40,308 bases of DNA, taken from sequence record MN850616.1; one strand, 5' to 3'. Positions 15,113 through 31,797 of this stretch are shown one piece after another. Under the pieces are notes generated by a model, which worked only from the letters and a program-made list of their open reading frames with translations, did not search any database and had not been told where the DNA came from. The position numbers and the translations under genes were made by a program. Numbering within the stretch: position 1 is the stretch's first letter; each line of letters begins with the position of its first letter. The DNA is from Escherichia phage buks.

Positions 15113-15142
15113 AAATGAAAAGAGGGACCGAAGTCCCTCAAG
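15113..15142 (-). terminator. Rho-independent terminator immediately after the major capsid gene
   Basis: On the minus strand: stem GAGGGAC / GTCCCTC with UUCG loop followed by UUUUCAUUU. Confidence 0.65.
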
Positions 15143-16911: not shown

Positions 16912-16995
16912 AGTCAATATGTCCCCTGGACTTTAGGACACCGGGCCACCCGGTGTTTCTGTAACAAGAATAAATTATTCCACTTACTAAGGCAA

Positions 16996-17259
16996 CTATT
17001 CCAGAATATTCCTTATGTACTCCTGCAACCGGAATACTTTCAAGCGAAGTTGCCGTGTGCACTCAGCGTTACGCACGTCGATGGTCAGGTCTTCGTCGGC
17101 ATCACTACTTGGCAGTGCCATTTTGCACGGCGGCTGCATTAGTGTCATATCCGGGGATGGAATTAGCATTCTCGGCGGCGCGCCGTTTGATTGACACCCG
17201 CTCAGGAGGGAACACGCAAACAACACGACCAGGACGGGTAACGTATTTGATAACTTCAC
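16996..17259 (-). CDS. Rz1: o-spanin (Rz1-like outer-membrane lipoprotein)
   Basis: GTG start with GGAGG RBS 8 nt upstream; signal peptide with lipobox (VVLFACSLLSGC), Pro-rich mature part; begins inside the Rz reading frame (+1) and extends past its stop. Confidence 0.65.
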   Translation of the reverse strand: MKLSNTLPVLVVLFACSLLSGCQSNGAPPRMLIPSPDMTLMQPPCKMALPSSDADEDLTIDVRNAECTRQLRLKVFRLQEYIRNILE

Positions 17260-17491
17260 GGGTGATAGCCTCCGCGTTTTCTTTACCTTCGGTTTCGGCG
17301 GCGGCGGCCCTGGTATCGTTCTGCTGCTGCCGTTGTGTTTTCTTCGCTAGCTCGGCCTGTGCTTTCTGTTGTTGCTGTGAAACAAGATTAGCGCGGCCTT
17401 CGTTCCAGCCGCTTCTGTAGTTGTACTGACCATATAACCACAAAGAGAGGATACCGGCTGCCGTGGCTATCGCTGTTACTTTCCAATTCAT
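17105..17491 (-). CDS. Rz: i-spanin (Rz-like inner-membrane protein)
   Basis: 128 aa; N-terminal transmembrane segment (VTAIATAAGILSLWLYG) followed by a Gln/Ala/Lys/Glu-rich helical periplasmic region; contains the embedded Rz1-like ORF. Confidence 0.7.
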   Translation of the reverse strand: MNWKVTAIATAAGILSLWLYGQYNYRSGWNEGRANLVSQQQQKAQAELAKKTQRQQQNDTRAAAAETEGKENAEAITREVIKYVTRPGRVVCVFPPERVSIKRRAAENANSIPGYDTNAAAVQNGTAK

Positions 17492-17623
17492 AGTATCCCC
17501 TTTCTTTATACGCTAAGCCCGGCGTAAGCCGGGCGTTAAACTCGTATATCTGTAAACATCATACGGCGAATCTTAGTTAAATACTGAAAGCAATAGAGCT
17601 CGGCCCTTCCGAATGCGTTCGCG

Positions 17624-17697
17624 GTTACGCTAGGGCGTTGTGACGCCCGCTTCACGCGACCCGCACCGCGGTACGCTGAAAGCGTAGGTAGCGTAAC
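17624..17697. repeat. GC-rich nested inverted-repeat element (multi-hairpin) in a 318-nt non-coding gap
   Basis: Outer arms GTTACGCTA (17624-17632) and TAGCGTAAC (17689-17697); inner hairpins GGCG-TTGTGA-CGCC and TACGCT-GAA-AGCGTA (17672-17686); repeated GCGT/ACGC units. Confidence 0.5.
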
Positions 17698-17777
17698 ATA
17701 AAAAATAATAAAAGTCTATTTTTGGAATAAAGTATTCCTGAATTTACATTGGTAAGGGATAACTGGAATAATGGTGT

Positions 17778-17806
17778 GTAAAATTAAGGCCCCTTGACGG
17801 GGCCTT
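17778..17806 (-). terminator. Rho-independent terminator after the Ig-like gene
   Basis: Stem AAGGCCCC / GGGGCCTT (17786-17806) followed on the minus strand by AAUUUUAC. Confidence 0.55.
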
Positions 17807-17809
17807 TCG

Positions 17810-18268
17810 TTACTTAGATTCTGAGACCTTAGCCGCTTTACTTACCACCGATATCCCGTCAGCATCTACCGCCCTGACGAAATACTCCCCCGGGTCTTTA
17901 ACAGTTAGTTCCCCTTCAACATAAGGGACGTTGATTACCTCTTTACCATTTTTAAACCATTGCAAATCGTAGGGCGCTTTGCCACCTTTCACGACTACGG
18001 TTAGTTTAGCGGAACCGTCTTTCAATTCTACATCTGCTGGCTGTGTGTCGAAGTACACATCACCTGCTCCGCCCAGATACGGCACTTCGTACAGGATACC
18101 GGCAGGGATTGCTACCAGTCCGGTCTTATCAGCGAACGGCATTTCATCTACCGACTCACCAAGAACAGATTCATCTTTAATGTACACAACACCTTCGCCC
18201 GCGCCGGACACACGGGAGTACTGAACTACACGTCGTGAAGGCACATCTTTAACTTTGAAAAAGCCCAT
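17810..18268 (-). CDS. Ig-like domain protein
   Basis: 152 aa; C-terminal ...KLTVVVKGGKAPYDLQWFKNGKEV...GEYFVRAVDADG... Ig-like pattern; starts 2 nt after the head morphogenesis gene; followed by a terminator. Confidence 0.5.
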   Translation of the reverse strand: MGFFKVKDVPSRRVVQYSRVSGAGEGVVYIKDESVLGESVDEMPFADKTGLVAIPAGILYEVPYLGGAGDVYFDTQPADVELKDGSAKLTVVVKGGKAPYDLQWFKNGKEVINVPYVEGELTVKDPGEYFVRAVDADGISVVSKAAKVSESK

Positions 18269-19490: not shown

Positions 19491-20141
19491 ATGAATGTGC
19501 AGACTTTAGAATTTCCGTATGGCGAGGTGGAATTTACACGTGATGAGTATATAGATGCCTCAACATTAACCATCCAGATGAACAGATGGAGGTTCGATAA
19601 CGGACTCCAACCAAGAAATCTTGCGCAGATACTAAAAACCGATGACTGCAAAAACTTTATGCGTGTGTGTGAGGAGGAGACAGGTATTGTTCCGTTAAAA
19701 ACATCAAGAGGGAGGAACGGGAAGACGTGGTTGTGCCTGCACCTGGCCGTGTACATTGCAGAACAGTATAGTGCGTATTTTCACTTCCTGGTTATAGACC
19801 GATTTATTACGCAACGGCAGGTAGAGCTGCGTAACATTGGTGCGGTAAGCTTCGTGGAGCTTAATGCCGCCGTTAGTAGGATGATTGAACGTACAGAAGG
19901 GCGGATAGGCCATAGTGGACATTTCATACAGGTAGCGAAAGCAATCAAGGAGTCTATAGATATTCGTGAAGTCACAGGTTTTGATACATGGGACTCCCAG
20001 GACGCAAAAACTAATCAATTGCGGAGCGAGATTCAAAAGTCTATGGTGACGTTGTTGGATATGGAAGCAGTCAACTCGTGGGATGAGCTTAAAGAGACAA
20101 TACCGCGTGTTGTTCGCAAATGCGCGGCAAATATATGTTAA
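19491..20141 (+). CDS. KilA-N-like DNA-binding domain protein
   Basis: 216 aa; strong promoter and AAGAGGAG RBS upstream, terminator downstream; segment ...GKTWLCLHLAVYIAEQYSAYFHFLVIDRF... resembles the KilA-N pattern; opposite orientation to the flanking structural genes. Confidence 0.55.
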   Translation: MNVQTLEFPYGEVEFTRDEYIDASTLTIQMNRWRFDNGLQPRNLAQILKTDDCKNFMRVCEEETGIVPLKTSRGRNGKTWLCLHLAVYIAEQYSAYFHFLVIDRFITQRQVELRNIGAVSFVELNAAVSRMIERTEGRIGHSGHFIQVAKAIKESIDIREVTGFDTWDSQDAKTNQLRSEIQKSMVTLLDMEAVNSWDELKETIPRVVRKCAANIC

Positions 20142-20170
20142 AACTAAGGCCCCGTCATGGGGCCTTTTGT
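20142..20170. terminator. Bidirectional terminator between the KilA-N-like gene (+) and portal gene (-)
   Basis: AAGGCCCC-GTCAT-GGGGCCTT hairpin (20146-20166) with flanking A/T runs. Confidence 0.65.
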
Positions 20171-21640
20171 TCACTTCTCTTGTTGTTGCGCCGATTGAGG
20201 GATTTCCCCCTGAACCTCAGTGGCGACCGGTAATGGCTGGTCCGCCACAGCGTCCTTAATATCAGCGTCTGTCCAGTCGGTGACACCGGCCTTACGCAAC
20301 GCGGCATAGTAGGCCGTGGCGGGCAGCAGCCCGGCGTTAATGTCCGCCATCCATGCAGCCCGGTCTTGCGCGGTCATAGGTTGCAGGAAGAAATCCATGT
20401 TAAGGCGGAACTCGACTTCCGTATCTTCAGGTTTACCGAGCATTATCGCCACCCAACGTAAAGCATCTGTATACGCCTGGCTTACGTTACGTGCGATTGT
20501 TGCCATGACGGACGTATCCGCGCCGCGTTGGATGCGTGCCGATTCTGCGGTAATTTGCTGAGTCGGGGTGATAAGCTGCGCACCAATCTGGATAGCCTGC
20601 TGCTCTTTATCCAGCATATTCTGGCGGGCAAGGTTGTTCTCGCCTGCCTGGATAAGCTGAGCGCTACCGCCATATCCCAGGTTATGCCCACACCGACTAC
20701 CAAATTTGATACCGTTAGGGTTCGCTTCCTTGAATGATTGAGGTGTTAAGTTCTCGCCTGGGTAGATAAACAGGGTCGGCTGCCCAACAACGAAGCTGGA
20801 TTCTTCGTTGTCCGCGCTGTTCCTGTAGTGCCCGATGTTAAGTTCCGCGAGTGGTAGTAGCGGAGCGTCGTCAATGGTGGTGTCGTTATTGGTCGCCCCA
20901 ATAAAGGTAAACGGAATTACCCCTCGTAATGATTCCCCTAAGTCCGGGTAAATCTCCACGACGTCTTCCTGCGCACCACCTTCGGCATCGAAACGAAAAA
21001 GACGTTGACGGTAGTTGCCGTCGGTATCGATGTCCAGGACCCGGTACTGTTCCCCATATTTTGTTTCGAACTCGTTCCCCGGTTCGTTGTACTCCCATGT
21101 CTCGCGCAGCACAACCATAGTTACCCGGTTTACAGAACCTACACGCGTGAGTCGCCAGTTAACGATATTCTCGGTAGTGTAGAAAGCGATTGTAGGGTTA
21201 AGCAGACCTGCGTTCTGTTCAGCCGCCGTAGCAGCGCCGGTTTCCGGAGCGTCGACGAGAAGACCACCACGACCTACCGAGTCAATCTCCATGAGTGTAT
21301 CTTGTGCGTGCTGTATCAGGCCTACACCAGACCCATCCGCATTTTTAAGCAGGTATTCCAGCTCCTTCGGGATATTGATTTCCGGTTCTTTACGCATGAC
21401 GCTACCAACCATCCCGGACAGCGTGCGACGCGTGAAGTTGTATACGATGCCGCCAGCCTCGTATTCGGCCTGGCGCGCTTCGCCATAGGCTTTGTCCGGT
21501 TCGTTCAGCCCTACGTTGCGTAGATAGCCCACCAGCTCACCCGCGAGCGCGTGGCGCACCTTCTGCCATTTCGGTGCGTAGTGCAGCCATTCACGATGCT
21601 TGGTTTTTACGCCAGAACCCTGGACGTTTGCTGTTAACAT
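20171..21640 (-). CDS. Portal protein
   Basis: 489 aa ORF immediately downstream of the large terminase gene (12-nt gap), AAGAGGA RBS; size and position typical of portal. Confidence 0.8.
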   Translation of the reverse strand: MLTANVQGSGVKTKHREWLHYAPKWQKVRHALAGELVGYLRNVGLNEPDKAYGEARQAEYEAGGIVYNFTRRTLSGMVGSVMRKEPEINIPKELEYLLKNADGSGVGLIQHAQDTLMEIDSVGRGGLLVDAPETGAATAAEQNAGLLNPTIAFYTTENIVNWRLTRVGSVNRVTMVVLRETWEYNEPGNEFETKYGEQYRVLDIDTDGNYRQRLFRFDAEGGAQEDVVEIYPDLGESLRGVIPFTFIGATNNDTTIDDAPLLPLAELNIGHYRNSADNEESSFVVGQPTLFIYPGENLTPQSFKEANPNGIKFGSRCGHNLGYGGSAQLIQAGENNLARQNMLDKEQQAIQIGAQLITPTQQITAESARIQRGADTSVMATIARNVSQAYTDALRWVAIMLGKPEDTEVEFRLNMDFFLQPMTAQDRAAWMADINAGLLPATAYYAALRKAGVTDWTDADIKDAVADQPLPVATEVQGEIPQSAQQQEK

Positions 21641-21652
21641 TTAACAATCCTC

Positions 21653-22924
21653 TTAAAGTGCGAAAGTAACCGGGATATGGGATACAGGTTTAACCAACGG
21701 CATTTCGTAGGCGATAGGGTATCCTGTTGCGTCGTTCTGGTGGTCGTTGCCGCTTGTTTTATCCGGCACACCGTTTTTATCGTAAGCCTGTTGCTCCAGG
21801 CAACGCGCGGTAACCGGGCAAGCCTGCTCGTTGACCATTAATCTACCAGACTCCAGCGCTTTATTCACCGATGCTACACGGTCTTTAACTGCAGGGTTAA
21901 CTGATTTCGCACGTATCTCGAAACCTGCGTTCTGTAATTGGGCAATATCTGACGTACTGGCATCAGTCGATTTACGGTTCTTGCCGCTGGCGTCCGGGTA
22001 CATGACGATGTGGTGGCCGTGTCGTTTCCACCGCTCGGTAATCTCCCTGACCACATCTGGGGTGTCGAACATATCCACCAGCTCGGCTACCGCGTGCCAG
22101 ACATACTCACGCTGAACGTATACGGTGCTAGCCATATGCCCGACGTTGAAGTCCTGACCGATATACAGCGTTTCTCCAGGTTGTATAGTCTCTCGACTGC
22201 TGTTCTTGCGTCGGTCGTAAGCATAATACACGCTGCCGGATGTCAGGTTGACAAATTCACCATCGATGTAGGCATCGATTAACTGGCCCGGATACGTATC
22301 CCGCAGCGACTGCACATAATCTTCCGGTAGAAAGGGATTGGATGTTGTCGAGGCCTGAATCATTTCATAGCCTGGTTTCTTTTTTACAGCCCATCTGTCG
22401 TGCACAAAACGGAAGCCTTCCGGGGTCGTAAAGACCGAGACTGTATTGGCAGGTTTCGGGGTAATCGGCCGATATGTACGCGGCAACTGACGGTTACGGG
22501 CGATAACTTTGTTCCAGGCGTGCTCGGCGTGGTCTTTATTTAACGTGTCCAACTCGTCTATTTTTGCGCGGAACGATTCGTAGCCAACAATTCGCGCGGG
22601 GTTATCCAATGTACGAAGGACAAAATCCCCGAATTGCCCGGACGATGTATAGATTATGTTGTCAGATTTATTGTACTTGTAGCGAATACCCCAATCGGAT
22701 AGCTTCTCTTCCATACGAGGGGCGAGGATAAGACGCACAAGGTCATACGTCGGTTCGTACATGGCAATAAGGGAATCGCTACCGCCCTCCATGCTGTCGA
22801 GTAGGGCGGAGTTGCACATGACCTCTGATTTACCTGTGCCGAAGCCAGCGACGAAGGCCGGGAATTTACAATGCAGATTAAGGAACGCGCCTTGCGGTTC
22901 CGTAGCCGTTATATCAACGTTCAC
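21653..22924 (-). CDS. Terminase large subunit
   Basis: 423 aa; N-terminal ATPase P-loop-like FVAGFGTGKSEV; GTG start with AAGGTGG RBS; follows small terminase gene with 11-nt overlap. Confidence 0.85.
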   Translation of the reverse strand: MNVDITATEPQGAFLNLHCKFPAFVAGFGTGKSEVMCNSALLDSMEGGSDSLIAMYEPTYDLVRLILAPRMEEKLSDWGIRYKYNKSDNIIYTSSGQFGDFVLRTLDNPARIVGYESFRAKIDELDTLNKDHAEHAWNKVIARNRQLPRTYRPITPKPANTVSVFTTPEGFRFVHDRWAVKKKPGYEMIQASTTSNPFLPEDYVQSLRDTYPGQLIDAYIDGEFVNLTSGSVYYAYDRRKNSSRETIQPGETLYIGQDFNVGHMASTVYVQREYVWHAVAELVDMFDTPDVVREITERWKRHGHHIVMYPDASGKNRKSTDASTSDIAQLQNAGFEIRAKSVNPAVKDRVASVNKALESGRLMVNEQACPVTARCLEQQAYDKNGVPDKTSGNDHQNDATGYPIAYEMPLVKPVSHIPVTFAL

Positions 22925-23420
22925 CGGACACCACCTTAATAGTTACTTCGCTAATTGGTTCGTCGCGCGTTTCTTCCACAACAGTTTTATTAAGCCCAAG
23001 TTTTGCTGCGGCAAACGTAGCAGATATCCCGGCGGCACCGGTCTCCGTGAAATACGCCTCTTCCAGGGCTTGTGCCGTCTCATATGCTTCGGCGAATGCG
23101 GGAACCTCTCGGAGCCATAGCTTGATAATCGGGATGGTTACACCGATGTGTAATGCGAAGCGGGCCAGCGACGGCGGTTTGTCCTGGATAAGCGGGCGTT
23201 CGTCGCCTTTAGACGTGGGTACGAGTTCCCATGACGTGCGGTCGAAGAACCGGATTAATTCGTCGCAATAGTCCGGGTCCCATAGTTCGGCGGAATGCCG
23301 GGATGACTGGTACAGACTTTGTTTACCACGCGGACGTTTACGGCGACGGTTTGCGTTAACCGCTTCTTCGTGCGCGGCAGCCACTACTTCGGCGTCAGGC
23401 TGTTTTAATTTGAGTTTCAT
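22914..23420 (-). CDS. Terminase small subunit
   Basis: Basic N-terminus plus putative HTH region; directly upstream of TerL. Start set to ATG 23418-23420 (MKLKLKQ...) with AGAGAGGA RBS; the track start at 23459 has a weaker RBS. Confidence 0.55.
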   Translation of the reverse strand: MKLKLKQPDAEVVAAAHEEAVNANRRRKRPRGKQSLYQSSRHSAELWDPDYCDELIRFFDRTSWELVPTSKGDERPLIQDKPPSLARFALHIGVTIPIIKLWLREVPAFAEAYETAQALEEAYFTETGAAGISATFAAAKLGLNKTVVEETRDEPISEVTIKVVSGER

Positions 23421-23553
23421 GCAATCCTCTCTTAAATGCGTATGACCATCATAGCGCATCAGACACCCCCTGAGCGTCTATTAAGGATTGTACAGGGGAA
23501 TGAAGGCCTGTGTACAGAAAAGCCCACAGAAGCGGGCTTGGTGGTAGGCTATT

Positions 23554-23784
23554 TTACAGTTCTACAGATGATAAATGGTTGGCCGCGGACTTAACCGCGT
23601 CTTTAAGGCTATCGTACGCGGAAGTAAAAGACATATGTACTCCTTTCGAGACAACTATAGCGCCGCCGTTAAAGTACGCTTTTGCTCTCCAGCCACCATT
23701 TACCTTATCAATAAGGATGTAGTGACTACCTTCTTCCGTTACCGTAACCGTGTTTTCGTCTATTACTTCAAATTTAGTGCCCAT
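23554..23784 (-). CDS. Hypothetical protein
   Basis: 76 aa; AGAGAGAGA RBS; followed by a terminator-like hairpin before terS. Confidence 0.45.
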   Translation of the reverse strand: MGTKFEVIDENTVTVTEEGSHYILIDKVNGGWRAKAYFNGGAIVVSKGVHMSFTSAYDSLKDAVKSAANHLSSVEL

Positions 23785-23799
23785 GTTTTCTCTCTCTCT

Positions 23800-24099
23800 T
23801 TAATCTTGCTCGTCTTTATATACCCACCACTTACCAACACCTTCCCATCGCCACCCGCGACTATGGATGGCACAGAATCTACGGCCAAATACTGTTTCCC
23901 CGTACCACATGACAAATAGCTTCACCGCGGTAGCAGCACCAATTTTATGCGCATTCAACCGGCGATACGCTAACGACATCCGGGTAAGACTAACGGCTTC
24001 AACAAACGGCCAAATAAACAAAATCCACACCAGGTATATGACCACAGCAAGGAGCAAAGTTGTAAACCCGATACCCATTAGGACTAGAAAATCATTCAT
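23800..24099 (-). CDS. Hypothetical membrane protein
   Basis: 99 aa with two hydrophobic segments and Trp-rich C-terminus; ATGA overlap with upstream gene; GGAGGGG RBS. Confidence 0.45.
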   Translation of the reverse strand: MNDFLVLMGIGFTTLLLAVVIYLVWILFIWPFVEAVSLTRMSLAYRRLNAHKIGAATAVKLFVMWYGETVFGRRFCAIHSRGWRWEGVGKWWVYKDEQD

Positions 24100-24323
24100 A
24101 ACCCCTCCAGCTTCATGCGGTCGTTGCGAGATACTCCGCGTTTCGTGTAGATGACCGGTGACGTTTTCGTATGGGTCATCAGTCGGTTGTTATAAATAAC
24201 ATGTTGCTCGCATTTTGTGTCATGGCGGTACTTGGATAATGTCATCTCATTAAGTCCAGTCTCCCGGCACGTATCCGCTAATGTGCCGTGAGCCTCTATT
24301 AGTTTCGGGATACTGGTAATCAT
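24096..24323 (-). CDS. Hypothetical protein (possible small DNA-binding protein)
   Basis: 75 aa; ATGA overlaps at both ends within the coupled micro-gene chain. Confidence 0.4.
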   Translation of the reverse strand: MITSIPKLIEAHGTLADTCRETGLNEMTLSKYRHDTKCEQHVIYNNRLMTHTKTSPVIYTKRGVSRNDRMKLEGL

Positions 24324-24469
24324 TCTTGTTCGCTCTCCTTCTCAAGTCGTTCCAGCAGCATCTTGAATGCTTCTAACTGGAATTCTTCGTTCATTGACAA
24401 ATCTAACTTATGTACCGACTCCAGATACATAATGTACTGGCGCAACGTTTCTTTGCGTACTCGTTTCAT
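24320..24469 (-). CDS. Hypothetical small protein (49 aa)
   Basis: Hand-found ORF missing from the track: [49 protein letters not shown]; its ATG overlaps the upstream stop (ATGA) and its stop overlaps the next ATG (ATGA). Confidence 0.4.
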   Translation of the reverse strand: MKRVRKETLRQYIMYLESVHKLDLSMNEEFQLEAFKMLLERLEKESEQE

Positions 24470-24699
24470 TTATTCACACTCCATCCGCATTTAAAACACT
24501 GCCAGCATTTACCTTTATCGTTGCTAACAAAATCATGCTCACACTTATTCAGATTGTATCGGTTAATAAGCTCCCGGCGATGCTCATTAAGGTAGTCTAA
24601 CGCGGCCTGGTGCGCCTTAATTTGCGCATCTACAGCTTCAATCTTAAAACGGCCGTTGGCGGACTCTACCATCATCTTTTCGTATTCGTTATTGGTCAT
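24466..24699 (-). CDS. Cys-rich zinc-finger-like protein
   Basis: 77 aa; C-terminal CEHDF...CWQCFKCGW cysteine cluster; ATGA overlaps on both sides. Confidence 0.45.
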
Positions 24700-24851
24700 T
24701 TCTTCTTACCCCACATGCGATTGAGATACTTGTTCTTGTCCGGCCCGGGGAAACTATTGCGTTTTAACAGTTCCTCGCGTGTCGGGAATGGCGTATTTCC
24801 TACCTTACCGCCCACCTTAAACGTTACCGCTACTTGCCCGTTGTCGCTCAT
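24696..24851 (-). CDS. Hypothetical small protein (51 aa)
   Basis: Hand-found ORF missing from the track: [51 protein letters not shown]; GGAGG RBS 9 nt upstream; ATGA overlaps on both sides. Confidence 0.4.
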
Positions 24852-25006
24852 TCCTGCACCTCCCATCCGCATACGTCTACTCCATCATAATATTGTTTAG
24901 ACCGTTCCAGTTCGGCGGCGGCTTCGGCCTTTTCTTCGCTGAGATAAACACCAAGAACGTAAGTGTCCTCGTAGTGGTACCATCCGGATACGATATATAC
25001 TTTCAT
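24848..25006 (-). CDS. Hypothetical small protein (52 aa)
   Basis: Hand-found ORF missing from the track: [52 protein letters not shown]; ATGA overlap with 25003-25188 stop and with the next ATG. Confidence 0.4.
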
Positions 25007-25188
25007 TTTTGTTCTCCTGCATAAGCTGCTTTCAGTGTCTGCATCGCGGCGAACCAGAACGCATCCGCTGGGATTCGTGTGCTCAGGTTATTAACGGCAA
25101 TGCGTGCCATCAATTGCGCGTCTTTAAATGCTTCGGTGTCCCGTAGCGGTTTGCAATAGTAAAAAACTTTATCGCTTTGTAAGTTCAT
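25003..25188 (-). CDS. Hypothetical protein (61 aa)
   Basis: First gene downstream of promoter 25222-25250; GGAG RBS; ATG 25186-25188. Confidence 0.45.
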   Translation of the reverse strand: MNLQSDKVFYYCKPLRDTEAFKDAQLMARIAVNNLSTRIPADAFWFAAMQTLKAAYAGEQK

Positions 25189-25221
25189 CTTCTCTACTCC
25201 GTTCTCGTTGTCGATGAGCTA

Positions 25222-25842
<621 letters not shown>

Positions 25843-25862
<20 letters not shown>

Positions 25863-26130
25863 ACATCCTCCGGTATTTGTAGTAGCGGGCGCCTTTCACG
25901 CAAATATGACGCACCGATTTAAGCGCGAATACGGCGACGAGAGTCGTAATTATGAATGGCGGGATGCCACCGGTAAAGAGATGAGCTAGCCCACCGGCGG
26001 CGGTAACAACGGACGCCATATACAACAGACGACCGAAAAGACCGTCTTCAATCCAGTGAGCGTAGATATTAATTAGCGAGGTGATGATGATTGCGACCAG
26101 GCAAATAACGCCGATTGGTGAGTTGAGCAT
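25843..26130 (-). CDS. Holin (three predicted transmembrane segments, basic C-terminus)
   Basis: 95 aa; three hydrophobic stretches and charged tail KYRRMYVKPKH; directly upstream of and overlapping the endolysin gene; GGGGGAAA RBS. Confidence 0.6.
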
Positions 26131-26131
26131 G

Positions 26132-26413
26132 TTATTTCCCCCACGGTAACTTAAAGTTGCTGAGGGACGAGTCGGCGGCTTCGAATAATTTAAGCCAGAA
26201 CATACCTACACCAAAAGGAACCAGGTACTGCCCCTCAGACTGCGATAGTTCATAGTAACTTATAATGATGGGGGATGCGTACACCGCACAACAGGCAGAT
26301 GCTACGAGATGGCATAATCGCAACCACGGCGAAATAGCCTCACGCTTCTTAATCTGGGATACGGCACCCCCGGCGAGGCCCGCCACACTAAGCCAAAGGT
26401 ATTTATCGTCCAC
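26132..26413 (-). CDS. Holin/antiholin-like membrane protein
   Basis: 93 aa with hydrophobic segments; GTG start (no in-frame ATG upstream); adjacent to holin-endolysin pair. Confidence 0.45.
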   Translation of the reverse strand: MDDKYLWLSVAGLAGGAVSQIKKREAISPWLRLCHLVASACCAVYASPIIISYYELSQSEGQYLVPFGVGMFWLKLFEAADSSLSNFKLPWGK

Positions 26414-26452
26414 AATAAAAAATCTCCGAAAGTTGGTTTACCTTTGGAGATT
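26414..26452 (-). terminator. Terminator-like hairpin after the HslV-like gene
   Basis: Imperfect ~10-bp stem (ATCTCCGAAAG / CTTTGGAGAT) followed on the minus strand by UUUUUUAUU; the T-run abuts the GTG start of the next gene. Confidence 0.45.
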
Positions 26453-26491
26453 AACATTTATACGACAATTTTAGTAACAGATAATTCGGAT

Positions 26492-26926
26492 TTATCCTAG
26501 TCGATGTGTTATCACTCCCCCATCAGTATTAGGGTCGAAGCGCTTCGCGATCTCGACAGCAGCAGTAGCGGTGGCACCCATAAACATCGCCGTAAGTGCA
26601 TACGGAGCACCGGAGCCAACGGCTGCCGCGTTACCCGCAATTGGTATAACTGAGCTTAACGGCGAGTCCCATGACTTGAAGAATTCTACCCTGAAAATAC
26701 GGTTATCCTCTTTAACAAACACCAGCGCTGAAAAGTCGAAGTCGTAGTACTTAGGCGCCAATATCTCGGCATCGACAACCAACAGCCTACCCACCCCGGC
26801 GTCCCCGGATACACCAATAACGAAGTGGTCGTTCTCGTAAATCTTGGTATCCGTATAGTATTTAAAATTCCCCGTGACACATGTATCGCAGGCCATCGTT
26901 TCACCGTCAAAAGCTATAGTAGTCAT
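26492..26926 (-). CDS. HslV-like Ntn-hydrolase (proteasome beta-type peptidase homologue)
   Basis: 144 aa; begins MTTIAFDG (Thr directly after Met, as in HslV MTTIVSV...), Lys ~27 residues in, and C-terminal ...AVGSGAPYALTAMFMGATATAAVEIAKRF... resembling HslV ...GSGGPYA..AARAL...ARDIAEKAL... (recalled, not aligned). Confidence 0.6.
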   Translation of the reverse strand: MTTIAFDGETMACDTCVTGNFKYYTDTKIYENDHFVIGVSGDAGVGRLLVVDAEILAPKYYDFDFSALVFVKEDNRIFRVEFFKSWDSPLSSVIPIAGNAAAVGSGAPYALTAMFMGATATAAVEIAKRFDPNTDGGVITHRLG

Positions 26927-26931
26927 ATAAG

Positions 26932-27303
26932 TTACCTGAACGTATAAAGTCGAATAGATGGCTTGTGCGGGATATCGGAATACCCACGTTTACGCCACAA
27001 CTTATACAGTTTAACAGCCATATGCGCCCGGGCCTGGCTACTGAACTCACCGAGGTTTACCACTTTCTTGCTGTCGTAAGAGTGCGCACGCCACAGACCT
27101 TTGCCTACGCAATACTTAGGCTGATGGACCCCAGGTATACGCGGATACACATCCGGCATCTCATTAGCTGGCTTTACTCGCGGCTTAGGTTTACGTTTAC
27201 GCTTGTCTTCTTCCTTAGGACGAGTAACCTTCTTTGTTACCGCCGATGAAGGCGGTGCAAGGTTAATACCGGCGTGTTTCAGGATATCGGTTGCGAGGCT
27301 CAT
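26932..27303 (-). CDS. Basic protein with AP2-like DNA-binding segment
   Basis: 123 aa; Lys/Arg/Pro-rich N-region then ...IPGVHQPKYCVGKGLWRAHSYDSKKVVNLGEFSSQARAHMAVKLY... resembling AP2-type domains; weak. Confidence 0.35.
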   Translation of the reverse strand: MSLATDILKHAGINLAPPSSAVTKKVTRPKEEDKRKRKPKPRVKPANEMPDVYPRIPGVHQPKYCVGKGLWRAHSYDSKKVVNLGEFSSQARAHMAVKLYKLWRKRGYSDIPHKPSIRLYTFR

Positions 27304-27305
27304 AA

Positions 27306-27509
27306 TTATTTCTCCTGTTTACCAAGTCGCTTAGGCGAGCAGATAGCGCGTACTTCTGAATCATTTGGCTTGTCGCCCTGAAACAGGAAGTGCGCATTCT
27401 CGTTGGCGCGTGCCGCTGACCGGCACGCCTCTAATGTGTAAAACGTTTCCGATGCCGCGAGTTGCATCTGGCCTGCGGACAGTACCCAGATAAATAAGAT
27501 ACTGGTCAT
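27306..27509 (-). CDS. Small secreted/periplasmic protein (67 aa)
   Basis: Start re-set to ATG 27507-27509 (MTSILFIWVLSAGQMQLAAS... signal-peptide-like), which forms an ATGA overlap with the upstream stop. Confidence 0.4.
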   Translation of the reverse strand: MTSILFIWVLSAGQMQLAASETFYTLEACRSAARANENAHFLFQGDKPNDSEVRAICSPKRLGKQEK

Positions 27510-27787
27510 TTCTTTAACCCGCATATTCTGCACATCATCGACGCACTTGTATCGTAAAAGTACCAATCGTGCTCGCACCCCTGAGCATCTTCTTTACGGC
27601 AACCAGATTGCTCCGTAATTGAATCAACAAAGGCCATAAGTTCCTGGTAGGCTAAATCCCGCTCCAGCGACGCCGCTACATACTTAGCATTGCCGCCCCG
27701 CACTACAGCACGGACCATATCTGCCGAAGTATCAGCTACCGCGTCAACAAGTACCATCAGATGGGTTGCCTGTTCTTTAGTAATCAT
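27506..27787 (-). CDS. Cys-rich hypothetical protein
   Basis: 93 aa; C-terminal GCRKEDAQGCEHDW...MMCRICG cysteine cluster; AGGAGA RBS. Confidence 0.45.
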   Translation of the reverse strand: MITKEQATHLMVLVDAVADTSADMVRAVVRGGNAKYVAASLERDLAYQELMAFVDSITEQSGCRKEDAQGCEHDWYFYDTSASMMCRICGLKK

Positions 27788-27846
27788 TGTTGCATCTCCT
27801 GCAATAGTTACGTTGGTTGTTGCATTTAGTGAAATAGAAAAATATT

Positions 27847-27879
27847 AACAAAAATGGTACGCTGCTACTCAGCAGCGTA
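27847..27879 (-). terminator. Rho-independent terminator after gene 27897-28196
   Basis: Perfect 9-bp stem TACGCTGCT / AGCAGCGTA with ACTC loop, followed on the minus strand by CCAUUUUUGUU. Confidence 0.55.
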
Positions 27880-27896
27880 AGTCACTCAGTAAAATC

Positions 27897-28196
27897 CTAA
27901 ACTACTGTTACAAGCTTCCGGCGGCTCCGGCAACAGCGCCCAGGTGCGGACCCGGGGCCACTAAAACCCTGGCCATAAACGGCAACCTCCTTTAAGACCC
28001 CGAGAATCACCGGCGCAGACTCTTTAGAATCTTTTGCCGTGTAGTTGTTTCCGATTGGCTCGAAAGTATCTCGTCTAACCCACCCATGAATCCTGTGTCC
28101 CTCAGGTAATAGGATAATCCTGGTCGGATTTTTGCTATAAACGAAATAGCAATTCCCGCTTATCTTATGCCGTAGCAACTGGCCCCTTTTAAACAT
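27897..28196 (-). CDS. Hypothetical early protein
   Basis: 99 aa; first gene after the minus-strand promoter/operator at 28227-28257; GAGGA RBS; followed by a terminator. Confidence 0.45.
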   Translation of the reverse strand: MFKRGQLLRHKISGNCYFVYSKNPTRIILLPEGHRIHGWVRRDTFEPIGNNYTAKDSKESAPVILGVLKEVAVYGQGFSGPGSAPGRCCRSRRKLVTVV

Positions 28197-28228
28197 GGTT
28201 CATCCTCTTTTCTCGTTAACCTGCAATA

Positions 28229-28257
28229 ATAGTACTCTATTATATTTGGTTACGCAA
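28229..28257 (-). promoter_or_regulatory. Candidate minus-strand promoter TTGCGT-N17-TACTAT with overlapping operator-like site
   Basis: -35 is the reverse complement of 28252-28257, -10 of 28229-28234; palindromic site TAATAGTACTCTATTA at 28227-28242 supplies the -10; ~25-nt leader to gene 27897-28196. Confidence 0.45.
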
Positions 28258-28727
28258 GTGCCTTTTTATTCTTTTCTCTCGTCCCTCGTCAGGTAAGCGC
28301 TTGCCGTGAGGCAAGTGCGTTAATCCCTGAGAAGCAGACTAAGAATCTTTCGGCATACAAGAGAACAGTTACGTTTGCCGTTGTTCAGTGTTGTGCCTTT
28401 ATTCTTATTATCTGGTAACTAAAGGGCAGGCCTTAAGCCTGCCCACTAATCGTTACATTTTACGGTTGCGAATCTACGGCACATCAAGGAAATCAGATAC
28501 TTAAGAGATATGCTGCCGATGAGAATATAGCTCGCCCAAGGCAGTTCAGATACTAAGGAAGGAAGTTACTGAGTTTTAAGTTTGCGGGTTTCAGTAAGCC
28601 TTAACGCGTTTCCGCTTAGGGCGGAACCGCTAAGCTCTCACAAGGTGAAACAGAAACTTAAGTAACTTGAAGTTACAAGAGACAACTTACACGAAAAAAA
28701 CAAGAATGTCAATAGGTGTGTTTATAG

Positions 28728-28756
28728 TTGATTTCCCATTATGCCGTGGGTATACT
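28728..28756 (+). promoter_or_regulatory. Candidate promoter TTGATT-N17-TATACT for the plus-strand replication operon
   Basis: -35 at 28728-28733, -10 at 28751-28756, followed by GGAGG RBS and ATG 28788. Confidence 0.5.
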
Positions 28757-28787
28757 TGCTTTACTAACTGAGATGGAGGGTTTGATA

Positions 28788-28958
28788 ATGACACAGAATG
28801 AAGTAGCTAAGCTTATTGGGGTGACCCGCCGTACGCTGAATAACTGGCTAAGAGACGGCAAGTTCCCGGATTGTTGTGTCCGGATTATGGGCCGCCGGAT
28901 GCCAGGTACGTTTGACCGGGAGAAAGTGGAAGCGTGGATTAGGGAGAATGTAAAGTGA
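28788..28958 (+). CDS. Small helix-turn-helix DNA-binding protein
   Basis: Start set to ATG 28788-28790 with GGAGG RBS 8 nt upstream (MTQNEVAKLIGVTRRTLNNWLRDGKFP...), not the TTG at 28728; classic HTH segment. Confidence 0.55.
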   Translation: MTQNEVAKLIGVTRRTLNNWLRDGKFPDCCVRIMGRRMPGTFDREKVEAWIRENVK

Positions 28959-29188
28959 CCGATTTCCAGAAAAGAGTATTCAGGGCTGTAGCCGCTCTTA
29001 CATTTAAAAAGGGGTCTTGTAGTGTCCTTGACTTGCGCCGCACTTATTTTCAGTACTATAGTTCCTCTCTCATCGAGAACACGTTGAAGGTTCTGGTTAG
29101 AGACGGAGCAGTTAAAAGTAAGGCCGGAAAATATTCGGCAGTAGCTGAAGTTAAATGCTCTCAGGCGACGCCCGAAGACCTTGAATAA
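28955..29188 (+). CDS. Hypothetical protein
   Basis: 77 aa; GTG start overlapping upstream stop (GTGA) with AGGGAG RBS. Confidence 0.45.
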   Translation: MTDFQKRVFRAVAALTFKKGSCSVLDLRRTYFQYYSSSLIENTLKVLVRDGAVKSKAGKYSAVAEVKCSQATPEDLE

Positions 29189-29244
29189 AAGAAAAGCCCC
29201 AACGCGCGAACGTCAGGGCTTTAAACACTACAAAGGAAAAGCAC

Positions 29245-31431: not shown

Positions 31432-31454
31432 AAAGAAAGGGGCCATCAGGCCCC
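31431..31454 (-). terminator. Terminator hairpin between convergent primase-like and XRE genes
   Basis: Stem GGGGCC / GGCCCC (31439-31454) with ATCA loop; on the minus strand followed by UUUCUUUU; the XRE stop codon lies in the loop. Confidence 0.5.
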
Positions 31455-31664
31455 TGTATCACCAAAGCTTAACCATCGAGGGTCAACACCGAGAGCATCG
31501 GCAATGTGGAAGATTTTAAAACAGTCTACCTTACACACCCGACCGGTTGCCAGATGGGTAATAAGGCTTTGGGATACGCCAGCTTTGAAAGCAAGCTCAG
31601 TTTGACCCATGCCGATTTCTTTGCGGCGGCGCTCTATGCGGGCGCCTAATTCGGATTGCTGCAT
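31446..31664 (-). CDS. XRE-family (Cro-like) helix-turn-helix transcriptional regulator
   Basis: 72 aa; ...RRRKEIGMGQTELAFKAGVSQSLITHLATGR...IADALGVDPRWL... is a textbook Cro/CI-type HTH; AAGGAG RBS; transcribed divergently from the replication operon. Confidence 0.75.
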   Translation of the reverse strand: MQQSELGARIERRRKEIGMGQTELAFKAGVSQSLITHLATGRVCKVDCFKIFHIADALGVDPRWLSFGDTGA

Positions 31665-31693
31665 ATGTTTACTCCTTAGTTAGATATGTAGTA

Positions 31694-31722
31694 ATAGTAC
31701 AGTAATAAAATACACGGTGCAA
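31694..31722 (-). promoter_or_regulatory. Candidate promoter of the XRE/Cro-like gene, TTGCAC-N17-TACTAT, with overlapping degenerate operator
   Basis: -35 is the reverse complement of 31717-31722, -10 of 31694-31699; site TAATAGTACAGTAATA at 31692-31707 overlaps the -10. Confidence 0.5.
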
Positions 31723-31737
31723 TTTACGAAAAAGTGC

Positions 31738-31766
31738 TTGCATAAATAATAGAGTACGATTATAGT
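31738..31766 (+). promoter_or_regulatory. Sigma70-like promoter TTGCAT-N17-TATAGT with overlapping operator-like site
   Basis: -35 at 31738-31743, -10 at 31761-31766; site TAATAGAGTACGATTA at 31747-31762; CAACTAAACA 10 nt downstream of the -10, as at promoter 7739-7767. Confidence 0.55.
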
Positions 31767-31797
31767 TCTTATCACCAACTAAACAGGAGAATGCACA

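What the first reader, a model, noticed from the sequence alone, without database searches (positions are those of the whole stretch)
17492..17809. 318-nt non-coding gap inside the morphogenesis operon with terminator, AT-rich tract and GC-rich nested hairpins
Between the Ig-like gene and the Rz gene there is no credible ORF. Reading the minus strand, there is a terminator (17778-17806), then an ~85-nt AT-rich tract (17700-17785), then a GC-rich element with nested inverted repeats (17624-17697), then a 7-bp GC hairpin (17527-17545) abutting the Rz RBS. Such a structured island in a tightly packed structural operon could be a late promoter plus leader, an RNA processing or stability element, a small RNA, or a packaging or replication site.
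Basis: seen in the sequence. Interest (0 to 1): 0.5.

Follow-up and report, generated by a model that had tools for sequence, protein, structure and literature searches.

The report
Promoter and structured leader RNA
The gap is real and is not junk: it holds a terminator, an empty slot for accessory genes, a conserved promoter with an operator-like site, and a previously undescribed folded leader RNA that restarts transcription of the phage's spanin, scaffold and capsid genes.

Summary
The window is Salmonella phage blauehaus (Jerseyvirus, Guernseyvirinae). The 318-nt gap (17492-17809) exists as described and is as conserved as the flanking genes in 265 relatives.

Reading the minus strand, it contains:
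- a terminator-like hairpin after the Ig/Hoc-like gene;
- a slot where relatives carry reverse-strand accessory genes (empty here);
- an operator-like dyad, GGAATA-N3-TATTCC, lying between two divergent promoter-like sites;
- a sigma70 extended -10 promoter (TAGACT-17-TGtTACGCT) whose geometry holds in 28 sequence variants;
- a ~190-nt leader.

The leader's GC-rich core folds as a small hairpin plus a long irregular hairpin of 21-27 bp. Compensatory changes support this fold: one base pair occurs as C-G, U-A and A-U with no unpaired case. G.U pairs place the structure on the gene-sense strand. The 7-bp hairpin before the Rz ribosome-binding site also covaries.

There is no Rfam match, no real tRNA and no conserved ORF. 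At least 43 Kagunavirus genomes carry a second copy of the promoter-plus-leader module at the head of the early operon.

Function is inferred, not shown. I favour a cis-acting processing or stability leader (about 0.35). Put-like antitermination (about 0.2) is the more novel rival.

The parts
17776..17806 (-). Terminator-like hairpin after the Ig/Hoc-like gene: stem AAGGCCCC/GGGGCCTT (17786-17806), loop GTCAA, tail AAUUUUACAC. It is palindromic, so it also faces the opposite strand.
   Evidence: I3: 8-nt arms, 100% complementary. Annotated as a terminator in the phi135 and Ent1 records. Not flagged by the scan because the tail has only 4 U. The homologous hairpin in Kagunavirus is flagged in the reverse direction, behind the cargo gene.
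17771..17785 (.). Empty accessory-gene slot, between the terminator and the distal TATTCC site.
   Evidence: In LSPA1, Kagunavirus 22664BS2, Cornellvirus SP-031, phiEap-2 and W5 a reverse-strand ORF of 67-284 aa sits exactly here. Kagunavirus contigs without cargo (L018, L050) join the terminator directly to the TATTCC sites, as this window does.
17743..17772 (+). Divergent promoter-like site TTTACA-18-(TGg)AATAAT pointing at the slot. In this phage it would run straight into the terminator.
   Evidence: 10 of 12 matches, with TG. The same site is found in Kagunavirus L005. Its -10 overlaps the distal GGAATA/TATTCC site.
17724..17738 (.). Operator-like dyad GGAATA-CTT-TATTCC, centred about 50 bp upstream of each of the two divergent start sites. 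A further half-site lies at 17765-17770.
   Evidence: 6 hits against 0.76 expected, 0 of 100 shuffles reach 6; I13, I14. Conserved in the J, K, C and E types. The binding protein is unknown.
17690..17718 (-). Sigma70-type extended -10 promoter: -35 TAGACT (17713-17718), 17-bp spacer, TG (17697-17698), -10 TACGCT (17690-17695). Predicted start about 17683 +/- 2.
   Evidence: Conserved geometry in 28 distinct variants, with a variable spacer and a variable n in TGn. Alignment. Promoter annotated at 17695-17741 in the phi135 record. Activity has not been measured.
17672..17686 (-). P1 hairpin UACGCU-UUC-AGCGUA. Its 5' arm overlaps the predicted start site, so it is complete only in RNA that starts at or above 17685, or in read-through RNA.
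   Evidence: Kagunavirus has a different hairpin (GCUUGU-N9-ACAAGC) at the same place.
17609..17671 (-). Long irregular hairpin (22 bp in all). P2a CCG/CGG; bulged C; P2b GGUGCG/CGCAUU with two G.U pairs; internal loop; P3 CGCG/CGCG; P4 GGGCGU-CACA-ACGCCC (17633-17648).
   Evidence: This is the minimum-energy fold of the isolated core, with pair probabilities around 0.8-0.9. The same architecture is the minimum-energy fold in 8 of 10 sequence variants. Covariation. Covariance-model hit at 17587-17691, 86 bits.
17591..17608 (-). Conserved 3' tail AAGGGCC-N-CUAUUG, directly after the long hairpin.
   Evidence: GGAAGG and UAUUG are invariant or nearly so in the J, K and second-copy variants. Related CGGAAGGG motifs occur in the C and E types and CGGAAAG in the T type. 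Role unknown.
17536..17655 (-). 39-aa GTG ORF, annotated as hypothetical in some relatives. Judged non-coding.
   Evidence: No Pfam hit. Its start lies inside the 42-nt stretch missing from SLMP1, and 1-nt indels occur in the homologous stretch of Kagunavirus variants L023, L031, L036 and L045. The frame readings (frameshifts, stop after codon 9 in L045, no start in phiEap-2) were made by eye.
17517..17534 (-). P5 hairpin GCCCGGC-UUAC-GCCGGGC, about 25 nt before the Rz start codon. The tail UUAGCGUAU is not a U-tract in this phage.
   Evidence: I4. Two pairs carry compensatory changes (C-G/G-C/U-A and G-C/A-U). Flagged as terminator-like only in Kagunavirus, where the tail is UUUACUUAU.
17489..17502 (-). 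Rz Shine-Dalgarno sequence (AAGGGGA) and ATG (17489-17491).
16938..16981 (-). Companion elements outside the finding, upstream of the scaffold gene: a second dyad GGAATA-ATT-TATTCT (16967-16981) and the hairpin ACACCGGG-UGG-CCCGGUGU (16938-16956).
   Evidence: The hairpin core is invariant in six leader types and its flanking pairs covary.

Best explanation
The gap is a transcription stop-and-restart module inside the structural gene array of a Jersey-type phage.

Transcription coming from the head-morphogenesis and Hoc-like genes meets a terminator-like hairpin. Behind it is a slot that in related phages holds a reverse-strand accessory gene and is empty here.

Next comes a regulatory region: a palindromic site, GGAATA-N3-TATTCC, lying between two divergent promoter-like sites. 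The rightward one (gene sense) is a sigma70 extended -10 promoter, TAGACT-17-TGtTACGCT.

This promoter starts an mRNA with a ~190-nt leader that runs into Rz/Rz1, the scaffold gene and the major capsid gene. The first ~100 nt of the leader form a conserved structure: a small hairpin P1, then a 21-27-bp irregular hairpin with a fixed base (CCG, bulged C, GGNGCG paired to CGCNUU-CGG) and a free-to-vary top, then the tail AAGGGCC..CUAUUG. A second conserved hairpin, P5, sits just before the Rz ribosome-binding site.

I commit to the reading that this leader acts in cis on its own transcript as a processing or stability element. The long hairpin is a double-stranded RNase III-type site or 5' protective structure. 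Together with P5 and the matching hairpin before the scaffold gene, it would set the 5' ends, half-life and translation of the spanin-scaffold-capsid message.

**Shown:** the anatomy, the conservation, the covariation and the strand.
**Inferred:** promoter activity, the start site, regulation through the dyad, and the mechanism.

Probability that the gap is a promoter plus a functional structured leader: about 0.75. Probability that the mechanism is processing or stability: about 0.35. The confidence value given (0.6) is for the module as a whole (terminator, empty slot, promoter and cis-acting structured leader), not for the specific mechanism.
For: **Identity and conservation**
- The window is phage blauehaus.
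- The gap is 90-97% identical in 265 records, equal to or above the coding flanks.
- A non-coding stretch of 218-456 nt precedes Rz in every Guernseyvirinae member examined.

**Promoter**
- The -35, 17-bp spacer, invariant TG with a variable third base, and -10 TA..CT hold in 28 variants with diverse spacers.

**Structure**
- The shared helices are 99.6% paired, with 3 pairs changed on both sides and none changed on one side. Slid controls pair at only 27-44%.
- One pair occurs as U-A (11 sequences), C-G (9) and A-U (2), with no unpaired case.
- The type-specific helices P3 and P4 carry further double changes.
- Eight of ten sequence-distinct variants independently give the same architecture as their minimum-energy fold, with 21-27 bp in the long hairpin.
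- The natural 42-nt deletion in SLMP1 removes the top of the hairpin between the two strands of P2b, which stay intact. Even so, the model fold is not the minimum-energy fold of that variant.
- The invariant G.U pairs would be C.A mismatches on the other strand.

**Processing or stability theme**
- P5 and the hairpin upstream of the scaffold gene both covary. Both lie about 25 nt before a start codon, and neither has a U-tract in this phage.

**Module behaviour**
- The promoter, P1-P4 and the tail recur as a unit at the early operon in at least 43 Kagunavirus records.
Against: - No transcript data exist for this region. The one Guernseyvirinae RNA-seq paper gives no intergenic detail.
- The -10 hexamer matches the consensus at only 3 of 6 positions, and the scan tool does not call this promoter.
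- With the canonical start at G17683 the P1 hairpin is truncated. An alternative fold then becomes nearly isoenergetic, and the probability of P2b drops to 0.03-0.10.
- Thermodynamic z-scores for the leader alone are unremarkable in this phage (-1.1) and in three other types.
- Covariation rests on few independent events among closely related sequences, and recombination between the two copies (L036 and L231) inflates the counts.
- A fixed bulge, two fixed G.U pairs and a fixed single-stranded tail look more like a specific binding site than a generic stabiliser.
- SLMP1 lives without the top of the hairpin, leaving too little duplex for RNase III.
Confidence: 0.6

Rival explanations
1. The leader is a processive antitermination RNA of the put or nut kind. 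The folded RNA made just after the promoter binds the RNA polymerase that made it, either alone (like HK022 put) or with a phage or host factor. That makes the polymerase resistant to the hairpin before Rz, the terminator after the capsid gene, and later terminators.
For: - The element starts within a few nucleotides of the predicted start site and consists of two adjacent stem-loops. putL has the same placement and general shape (for put features).
- At least 43 Kagunavirus genomes carry two copies, each at the head of a long co-directional operon. This mirrors putL/putR and nutL/nutR.
- In Kagunavirus both copies are followed within about 80-120 nt by a terminator-like hairpin.
- Conservation is concentrated in the base of the hairpin (bulged C, tandem G.U) and a single-stranded tail. 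The top is variable or can be deleted, as expected for a specific binding surface.
- A strong terminator follows the capsid gene at 15122-15139.
Against: - There is no sequence similarity to the HK022 early region, and the covariance model does not hit it.
- No boxA-like motif is conserved. The GCUCU-like stretch is the variable part of the tail.
- No N- or Q-like protein is annotated.
- In this window the hairpin before Rz lacks a U-tract, and the phage has only one copy.
- P1 is short and simple, unlike put stem I.
- Function cannot be tested here.
Confidence: 0.2
2. The leader controls translation of Rz/Rz1, or the timing of spanin synthesis. It would do so through alternative folds or a bound protein that mask or expose the Rz ribosome-binding site.
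For: - The P5 hairpin lies about 15 nt upstream of the Rz Shine-Dalgarno sequence, and it covaries.
- The fold of the J-type leader depends on its 5' end, with near-isoenergetic alternatives.
- A purine-rich GGAAGGG motif is conserved.
Against: - The conserved module (P1-P4 plus tail) also occurs at the early operon, with an unrelated 3' half and no spanin gene. The core is therefore not Rz-specific.
- No conserved pairing between the leader and the Rz ribosome-binding site was seen.
Confidence: 0.1
3. The promoter makes a free-standing small RNA of about 165-215 nt that ends at the P5 hairpin and acts in trans.
For: - In Kagunavirus P5 has 8 pairs and the tail UUUACUUAUC, and it is flagged as terminator-like.
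- The length is similar to the 194-nt lambda 6S RNA made from PR' to tR' (my own knowledge).
Against: - In this window and all J-type phages P5 has no U-tract.
- The 3' half of the leader is poorly conserved between types and differs completely in the second copy.
- No target is evident, and there is no Rfam match.
Confidence: 0.07
4. The hairpins act at the DNA level, as a packaging (pac/cos) site, a replication origin or a single-strand initiation signal. Alternatively, the region is a decaying remnant of a deleted accessory gene with no function.
For: - Compensatory changes would also preserve DNA hairpins.
- The gap is the empty form of a cargo slot.
Against: - The tandem G.U pairs and other wobble pairs exist only on the gene-sense strand.
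- The element is fused to a conserved promoter and moves with it to a second locus.
- The cargo sits upstream of the promoter, and phages that carry cargo keep the full leader.
- Conservation equals that of coding DNA, which excludes a decaying remnant.
Confidence: 0.04

Closest known systems
HK022 put RNAs (putL, putR), cis-acting antiterminator RNAs
   Same: A promoter-proximal structured RNA made of two adjacent stem-loops with bulges. Two copies per genome at the heads of two operons (in Kagunavirus). Terminator-like hairpins downstream. (for put; for this element.)
   Different: No sequence similarity. P1 is a simple 5-6-bp hairpin, and no triplex or put-type motifs are evident. There is a single copy in this window. 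The host phage is a virulent siphovirus rather than a lambdoid. Antitermination was not tested.
RNase III processing hairpins in phage leaders (T7 R sites; the lambda N leader)
   Same: An irregular hairpin of roughly two helical turns (21-27 bp) with internal loops. It lies in a 5' leader or between genes, is present at more than one locus, and sits next to ribosome-binding sites. (The T7 and lambda features are from my own knowledge; the element's helix lengths are.)
   Different: No cleavage data. The conserved bulged C, tandem G.U pairs and single-stranded tail are not known RNase III determinants. The SLMP1 variant keeps only about 9 bp.
Lambda PR'-tR' late leader (6S RNA) with Q antitermination
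   Same: A constitutive-looking sigma70 promoter, a ~200-nt leader and a hairpin just before late and lysis genes. In the J type a copy of the -10 hexamer lies in the initially transcribed region (the lambda features are from my own knowledge).
   Different: In this window the hairpin lacks a U-tract. No Q-like gene is annotated. The downstream repeat of the -10 is not conserved in the K type, where it reads TGAGCT.
Moron or accessory-gene slots flanked by their own promoter and terminator in phage structural modules
   Same: Variable reverse-strand genes are inserted at one fixed point next to a two-way terminator and a divergent promoter.
   Different: In this phage the slot is empty. The conserved leader belongs to the resident operon, not to the cargo.

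Membership tests
Intrinsic (Rho-independent) terminator | GC-rich stem-loop directly followed by a U-tract | tested here: inconclusive
   The site at 17786-17806 has an 8-bp stem (6 GC) and a 5-nt loop. The tail AAUUUUA has only 4 U, so the scan did not flag it. It is annotated as a terminator in two GenBank records.
Intrinsic (Rho-independent) terminator (P5 hairpin, 17517-17534) | U-tract after the stem | tested here: not met
   The tail is UUAGCGUAU, and the site is not flagged in the window. The Kagunavirus homologue is flagged.
Sigma70 extended -10 promoter | -35-like hexamer, 17-bp spacer, TG at -15/-14, and a -10 hexamer with T-12, A-11 and T-7 | tested here: met
   TAGACT-17-TGtTACGCT at 17690-17718. 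The same geometry holds in 28 variants. Only the sequence pattern was tested, not activity.
Sigma70 extended -10 promoter | A primary transcript start about 7 nt after the -10 | not testable with these tools
   No 5'-end data are available.
Any Rfam family (riboswitch, ribozyme, sRNA, tRNA, leader) | Covariance-model score at or above the gathering threshold | tested here: not met
   No hit in the window or in 7 related loci at gathering. Only chance-level hits with E of about 0.2 or higher in 17400-17900.
tRNA (the tRNA-Ser annotated in ER21 and horsemountain) | A cloverleaf detected by tRNA finders and by the Rfam tRNA model | tested here: not met
   ARAGORN finds none in the window. It calls an antisense tRNA-Ser in L001 and L014 that overlaps the terminator and the 3' end of the Hoc-like gene. 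There is no Rfam tRNA hit there.
HK022 put antiterminator RNA | About 70 nt with two stem-loops, just downstream of a promoter | tested here: inconclusive
   Two adjacent stem-loops begin at about +1 to +3 and span about 80-100 nt. The shape is only loosely similar to the description.
HK022 put antiterminator RNA | Sequence or structure homology to putL/putR | tested here: not met
   No blastn similarity to HK022 20000-32000. Model R1 gives no hit there.
HK022 put antiterminator RNA | Read-through of downstream terminators, dependent on the RNA polymerase beta-prime zinc-binding domain | not testable with these tools
   Needs reporter assays or in vitro transcription.
Lambda-type nut site | Conserved boxA plus a boxB hairpin, and an N-like protein | tested here: not met
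   The boxA-like GCUCU stretch falls in the variable part of the tail. The P1 loops differ between the J, K and K2b variants. No N-like gene is annotated.
RNase III processing site | About 20 bp or more of mostly continuous duplex in an irregular hairpin | tested here: met
   21-27 bp in nine variants. Cleavage was not tested.
Small protein-coding gene (the 39-aa ORF annotated in some relatives) | Start codon and reading frame conserved across relatives | tested here: not met
   The start lies inside the 42 nt missing from SLMP1, and L023, L031, L036 and L045 carry 1-nt indels in the homologous stretch. By-eye frame reading gives frameshifts or a stop after codon 9 in L045 and no start in phiEap-2. 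No Pfam hit.
The J/K leader RNA family defined here (model R1) | P1, plus CCG-C-GGNGCG paired to CGCNUU-CGG, plus the AAGG tail | tested here: met
   Window 17587-17691 scores 86 bits (E 1e-22). Shelanagig scores 80 bits. Kagunavirus loci score 98-139 bits, with two copies in L208. SP-031 is marginal (12.8 bits, E 0.29). The E, S, T and Klebsiella types are not detected. The window sequence was part of the training alignment, so its own score is by construction.

The most novel reading that the evidence does not exclude
The P1-P4 leader would be a new family of promoter-proximal antiterminator RNAs in virulent Guernseyvirinae phages. It would be analogous to, but unrelated in sequence to, HK022 put. 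It would convert RNA polymerase started at its own promoter into a terminator-resistant form at the heads of the early and capsid operons.
Probability: 0.2. Interest if true: 0.8.

Novelty: new member of a known kind. Interest (0 to 1): 0.5.

Why it matters
Jersey- and Kaguna-type phages are widely used for Salmonella and E. coli biocontrol, yet their transcription programme is essentially unmapped.

This gap gives a concrete, testable control point for the most abundant virion proteins. It contains a promoter with a candidate operator and a leader RNA supported by covariation. That RNA is absent from Rfam, and in the records inspected it is either unannotated or overlapped by 'hypothetical protein' or, in two records, tRNA-Ser features.

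If the leader proves to be an antiterminator or a defined processing signal, it would:
- add a new cis-regulatory RNA class outside the lambdoid phages;
- provide a compact promoter-leader cassette for phage engineering;
- mark a natural insertion slot for payload genes.

Tried and rejected
- **Rfam.** Gathering threshold and E up to 10: nothing.
- **tRNA.** ARAGORN finds none in the window. The tRNA-Ser annotated in some relatives is an antisense false positive.
- **39-aa ORF as a gene.** Rejected because of indels in relatives that I read as frameshifts, loss of the start in SLMP1 and no Pfam hit.
- **Mini-ORF after GGAAGGG.** Rejected because the UUG becomes CUG in several J variants.
- **BoxA-like motif.** Rejected because it lies in the variable part of the tail.
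- **Pseudoknot between the K-type P1 loop (AGUAUG) and the downstream CAUACU.** Not kept in the CAUAGU variants and impossible in the J type.
- **Homology to HK022 put.** None.
- **Host origin.** No match in 5,426 E. coli genomes. The scan of 100,044 species genomes gave 19 pattern hits. Only 2 are real, and both are phage contigs mis-filed in assemblies. The rest are chance hits in high-GC genomes.
- **The 14-nt motif TCAACGGCAGCAAT as a probe.** Too unspecific, giving 120+ random hits.
- **Literature.** No transcript mapping or description of this region was found.
- **Thermodynamic z-scores.** Not consistently significant across types, so they are not used as main evidence.
- **One covariance model for all leader types.** It fails beyond Jerseyvirus and Kagunavirus. 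I do not claim one RNA family for the whole subfamily.
Full report
**Identity and setting.** The window is Salmonella phage blauehaus (MT074473; Jerseyvirus, Guernseyvirinae), with its structural genes on the minus strand. The finding lies between the Ig/Hoc-like decoration gene (17810-18268; weak Ig_3 and I-set Pfam hits) and the i-spanin Rz (17105-17491), which has Rz1 embedded in it. Scaffold and major capsid genes follow.

The module is not a tight operon. Reverse-strand accessory genes interrupt it after the portal gene and after the major tail gene.

- The gap is 318 nt.
- The terminator hairpin is at 17786-17806.
- GC drops to 0.22-0.32 over about 17690-17779 and rises to 0.65-0.67 over 17600-17689.
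- The nested inverted repeats are all present.
- The sense strand of the whole gap folds at z = -4.8.
- The gap is 90-97% identical in 265 Jerseyvirus records. For the same phages this equals or slightly exceeds the 1.4-kb stretch that includes the flanking genes, for example 96.5% against 95.4% for AG11.

**The gap is the empty form of an accessory-gene slot.** In several relatives a reverse-strand ORF sits between the Hoc terminator and the AT-rich tract:

| Phage | Reverse-strand ORF |
|---|---|
| LSPA1 | 179 aa |
| Kagunavirus 22664BS2 | 67 aa |
| Cornellvirus SP-031 | 284 aa, PAPS-reductase-like |
| phiEap-2 | 70 aa |
| W5 | 171 aa |

These phages still have 370-460 nt of non-coding DNA before Rz. 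Kagunavirus contigs without cargo look like blauehaus. Serratia and Klebsiella relatives have 218-283-nt gaps. The non-coding leader therefore belongs to the resident operon, not to the cargo.

**The AT-rich tract is a regulatory region.**
- An alignment of 50 distinct upstream regions shows a conserved sigma70-type promoter with an extended -10.
- In blauehaus it reads TAGACT (17713-17718), a 17-bp spacer, TG (17697-17698) and TACGCT (17690-17695).
- Across 28 distinct variants from four leader types and both loci, the -35 (T-N-G-A-Y-T), the 17-bp spacing, the TG and the T-A...T of the -10 are constant. The spacer and the base after TG vary. The search pattern required TG and TA..CT, so that part of the constancy is partly built in.
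- The scan tool does not call this promoter, because the -10 matches the consensus at only 3 of 6 positions.
- The tool does call a divergent site on the + strand, TTTACA-18-AATAAT with TG (17743-17772). This site is conserved in Kagunavirus and points at the cargo slot.
- Between the two -35 elements lies a perfect dyad, GGAATA-CTT-TATTCC (17724-17738), with a further half-site at 17765-17770.
- The pattern GGAATA-N3-TATTC with up to 1 mismatch gives 6 strand-counted hits in the window against 0.76 expected.
- Besides this site, the other convincing one is at 16967-16981, just upstream of the scaffold gene. Both positions are conserved in the J, K, C and E phages.
- Klebsiella-type relatives instead repeat TTGCGAG five or six times in the homologous gap.

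This pattern fits binding sites for a phage-specific regulator, but no binder has been identified.

**The GC-rich element is a conserved folded RNA on the gene-sense strand.** Jerseyvirus (J) and Kagunavirus/LSPA1 (K) leaders share the following architecture:
- a first hairpin, P1;
- a long hairpin whose base is CCG, a bulged C and GGYGCG, paired to CGCRUU and CGG;
- middle (P3) and top (P4) helices that differ in sequence between types;
- the tail AAGGGCC..CUAUUG.

Counts on 35 distinct leaders, for the helices that align unambiguously:
- 99.6% of cells are paired, against 27-44% when the partner is slid by 1-3 columns.
- Three pairs change on both sides and none changes on one side only.

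With the second-locus copies added, the variable pair in P2b is U-A in 11 sequences, C-G in 9 and A-U in 2, and never unpaired.

Changes within types:

| Helix | Change |
|---|---|
| J P4 closing pair | U-A to C-G |
| K P4 | GGGAC/GUCC to GGUGC/GCAC, or to CGGAC/GUCCG |
| K P3 | GUAAC/GUUAC to GGAAC/GUUCC |
| L011 (J type) | the P2b-P3 internal loop closes into a perfect 12-bp helix |

Further support:
- Folded alone, 8 of 10 sequence-distinct cores give this same architecture as their minimum-energy structure. The long hairpin has 21-27 bp.
- In blauehaus the model is the minimum-energy fold of the first 85-102 nt, with pair probabilities of 0.8-0.9.
- The natural 42-nt deletion in SLMP1 removes the apical part that lies between the two strands of P2b, which remain. 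The isolated SLMP1 core nevertheless adopts a different minimum-energy fold.
- The two invariant G.U pairs in P2b, and other wobble pairs, would be C.A mismatches on the opposite strand. The structure therefore belongs to the mRNA-sense strand.
- The P5 hairpin before the Rz ribosome-binding site has two covarying pairs.
- A similar hairpin before the scaffold gene has an invariant core and covarying flanks in six leader types.

**What the element is not.**
- No Rfam family matches.
- ARAGORN finds no tRNA in the window. The tRNA-Ser annotated in ER21 and horsemountain is an antisense call over the terminator, with no Rfam support.
- The 39-aa ORF that some records annotate is not a gene. Its start lies in the 42 nt missing from SLMP1, and Kagunavirus variants carry 1-nt indels there that by my reading shift or truncate the frame. 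It has no Pfam hit.
- The element is absent from 5,426 E. coli genomes and, apart from two mis-binned phage contigs, from 100,044 species genomes.

**A second copy exists in Kagunavirus.**
- A pattern for the hairpin base found 48 stretches in IMG/VR, all on contigs of the Guernseyvirinae type (most 40-45 kb, a few shorter fragments). Several contigs were hit twice.
- The second copy keeps the promoter, P1, the hairpin base and the tail, but has a different top.
- It lies between a reverse HTH gene (next to the primase gene) and the rightward string of small early ORFs.
- In GenBank phages, 181 records match in 224 places, so about 43 records carry two copies.
- A covariance model built here finds both copies 10.7 kb apart on the same strand in one locus, but only one copy in blauehaus and in Shelanagig.
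- The Rz-leader of L036 has the top of the early-locus copy seen in L231, so the two copies recombine.
- The model reaches SP-031 only marginally and does not detect the phiEap-2, SE1/W5, Serratia or Klebsiella leaders. Those phages have other structured leaders at the same place.
- The early leader of blauehaus (about 28350-28712) is organised similarly, with a promoter, a structured region and a terminator-like hairpin at 28424-28444. It is not a copy of the module.

**Mechanism.** What is shown is the anatomy, the conservation, the covariation and the strand. Everything functional is inferred.

I favour a cis-acting processing or stability leader (probability about 0.35), for four reasons:
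- The long hairpin has the length and irregular form of RNase III sites in the T7 and lambda leaders (my own knowledge of those systems; lengths).
- It sits at the 5' end of the message for the most abundant virion proteins.
- Two further covarying hairpins without U-tracts lie just upstream of the Rz and scaffold ribosome-binding sites.
- The hairpin before Rz is not a terminator in this phage.

The main rival (about 0.2) is put- or nut-like processive antitermination. In its favour:
- the position next to the promoter;
- two adjacent stem-loops;
- two copies at two operon heads;
- terminator-like hairpins after both Kagunavirus copies;
- a conserved base and tail with a dispensable top.

Against it: no similarity to put, no boxA, no N- or Q-like gene, and a single copy here.

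Translational control of Rz, a free small RNA, and DNA-level roles are less likely, for the reasons given under the rival explanations.

**Caveats.**
- The start site is only predicted. With a start at G17683 the J-type P1 is truncated and a competing fold is nearly isoenergetic.
- The covariation rests on a handful of events among close relatives and is inflated by recombination.
- Leader-only z-scores are modest in this phage.
- No experimental transcript data were found.

**Verdict.** It is a terminator, an empty accessory-gene slot, a divergent promoter region with an operator-like dyad, and a covariation-supported leader RNA that is absent from Rfam and was not found described in the literature searched. 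This is a new member of a known kind (a phage cis-regulatory leader), of moderate interest. It would be of high interest if the antitermination reading proves right.

Noticed in passing
window 16938-16956 (minus strand): A hairpin, ACACCGGG-UGG-CCCGGUGU, lies about 25 nt upstream of the scaffold gene start. Its core CCGGGTGGCCCGG is invariant in six leader types of Guernseyvirinae, and the flanking pairs covary (ACA/UGU, AAU/AUU, G/C). It has no U-tract.
   Followed up: partly
window 16967-17035: A second GGAATA-N3-TATTC dyad (16967-16981) and several more GGAATA/TATTCC sites lie within and after the 3' end of Rz1, upstream of the scaffold gene. The position is conserved in the J, K, E and S phages. 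Together with the dyad in the gap, these sites bracket the spanin genes.
   Followed up: partly
window about 28350-28712 (minus strand): The early-operon leader has a TTGACA-17-TAAGTT promoter, the palindrome GTAACTTCAAGTTAC and a GC-rich structured part. It also has a strong terminator-like hairpin, GGGCAGGC-TTAA-GCCTGCCC-TTTAG (28424-28444), and the motif ACAACGGCAAACGTAAC, which it shares with Kagunavirus early leaders. It is organised like the gap but is not a copy of the module.
   Followed up: partly
L001 1261-1339 and L014 1454-1532 (equivalent to window about 17760-17838, + strand): ARAGORN calls a tRNA-Ser(tga) antisense across the terminator and the 3' end of the Hoc-like gene in some Jerseyvirus variants. 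GenBank records ER21 and horsemountain annotate it. There is no such call in blauehaus and no Rfam tRNA hit, so it is probably a false positive.
   Followed up: yes
L059, L060 and L055 (Klebsiella-type relatives), 250 nt upstream of Rz: TTGCGAG is repeated five or six times, including the perfect palindrome GACTCGCAAAATTTTGCGAGTC, in the gap homologous to this one. It takes the place of the GGAATA sites. This suggests a different cognate regulator.
   Followed up: no
window 17624-17632 / 17689-17697 and 17681-17695: A perfect 9-nt inverted repeat, GTTACGCTA/TAGCGTAAC, links the -10 region to the 3' internal loop of the long hairpin. The -10 hexamer TACGCT is also repeated 3 nt downstream, as the 5' arm of P1. 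Both features are specific to the J type. They matter only for read-through RNA or for sigma-dependent pausing.
   Followed up: partly
window 19491-20141 (+ strand) and L006 1989-2843: A reverse-strand 216-aa ORF with a weak KilA-N match interrupts the portal and head-morphogenesis genes. In SP-031 the cargo in the slot studied here is PAPS-reductase-like, and in W5 it gives weak matches to sliding-clamp domains.
   Followed up: partly
L036 against L231 (IMG/VR Kagunavirus contigs): The apical part of the Rz-leader in L036 is identical to that of the early-locus copy in L231. This shows recombination or gene conversion between the two copies of the module.
   Followed up: partly
T, Klebsiella, C, E and S type leaders (L007, L059, L006, L058, L057) and the Kagunavirus and J early leaders: A short motif, (A)UCAACGGCAGCAAU / ACAACGGCAACGUAAC, recurs close to the first ribosome-binding site in otherwise different leaders. 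Its role is unknown.
   Followed up: no
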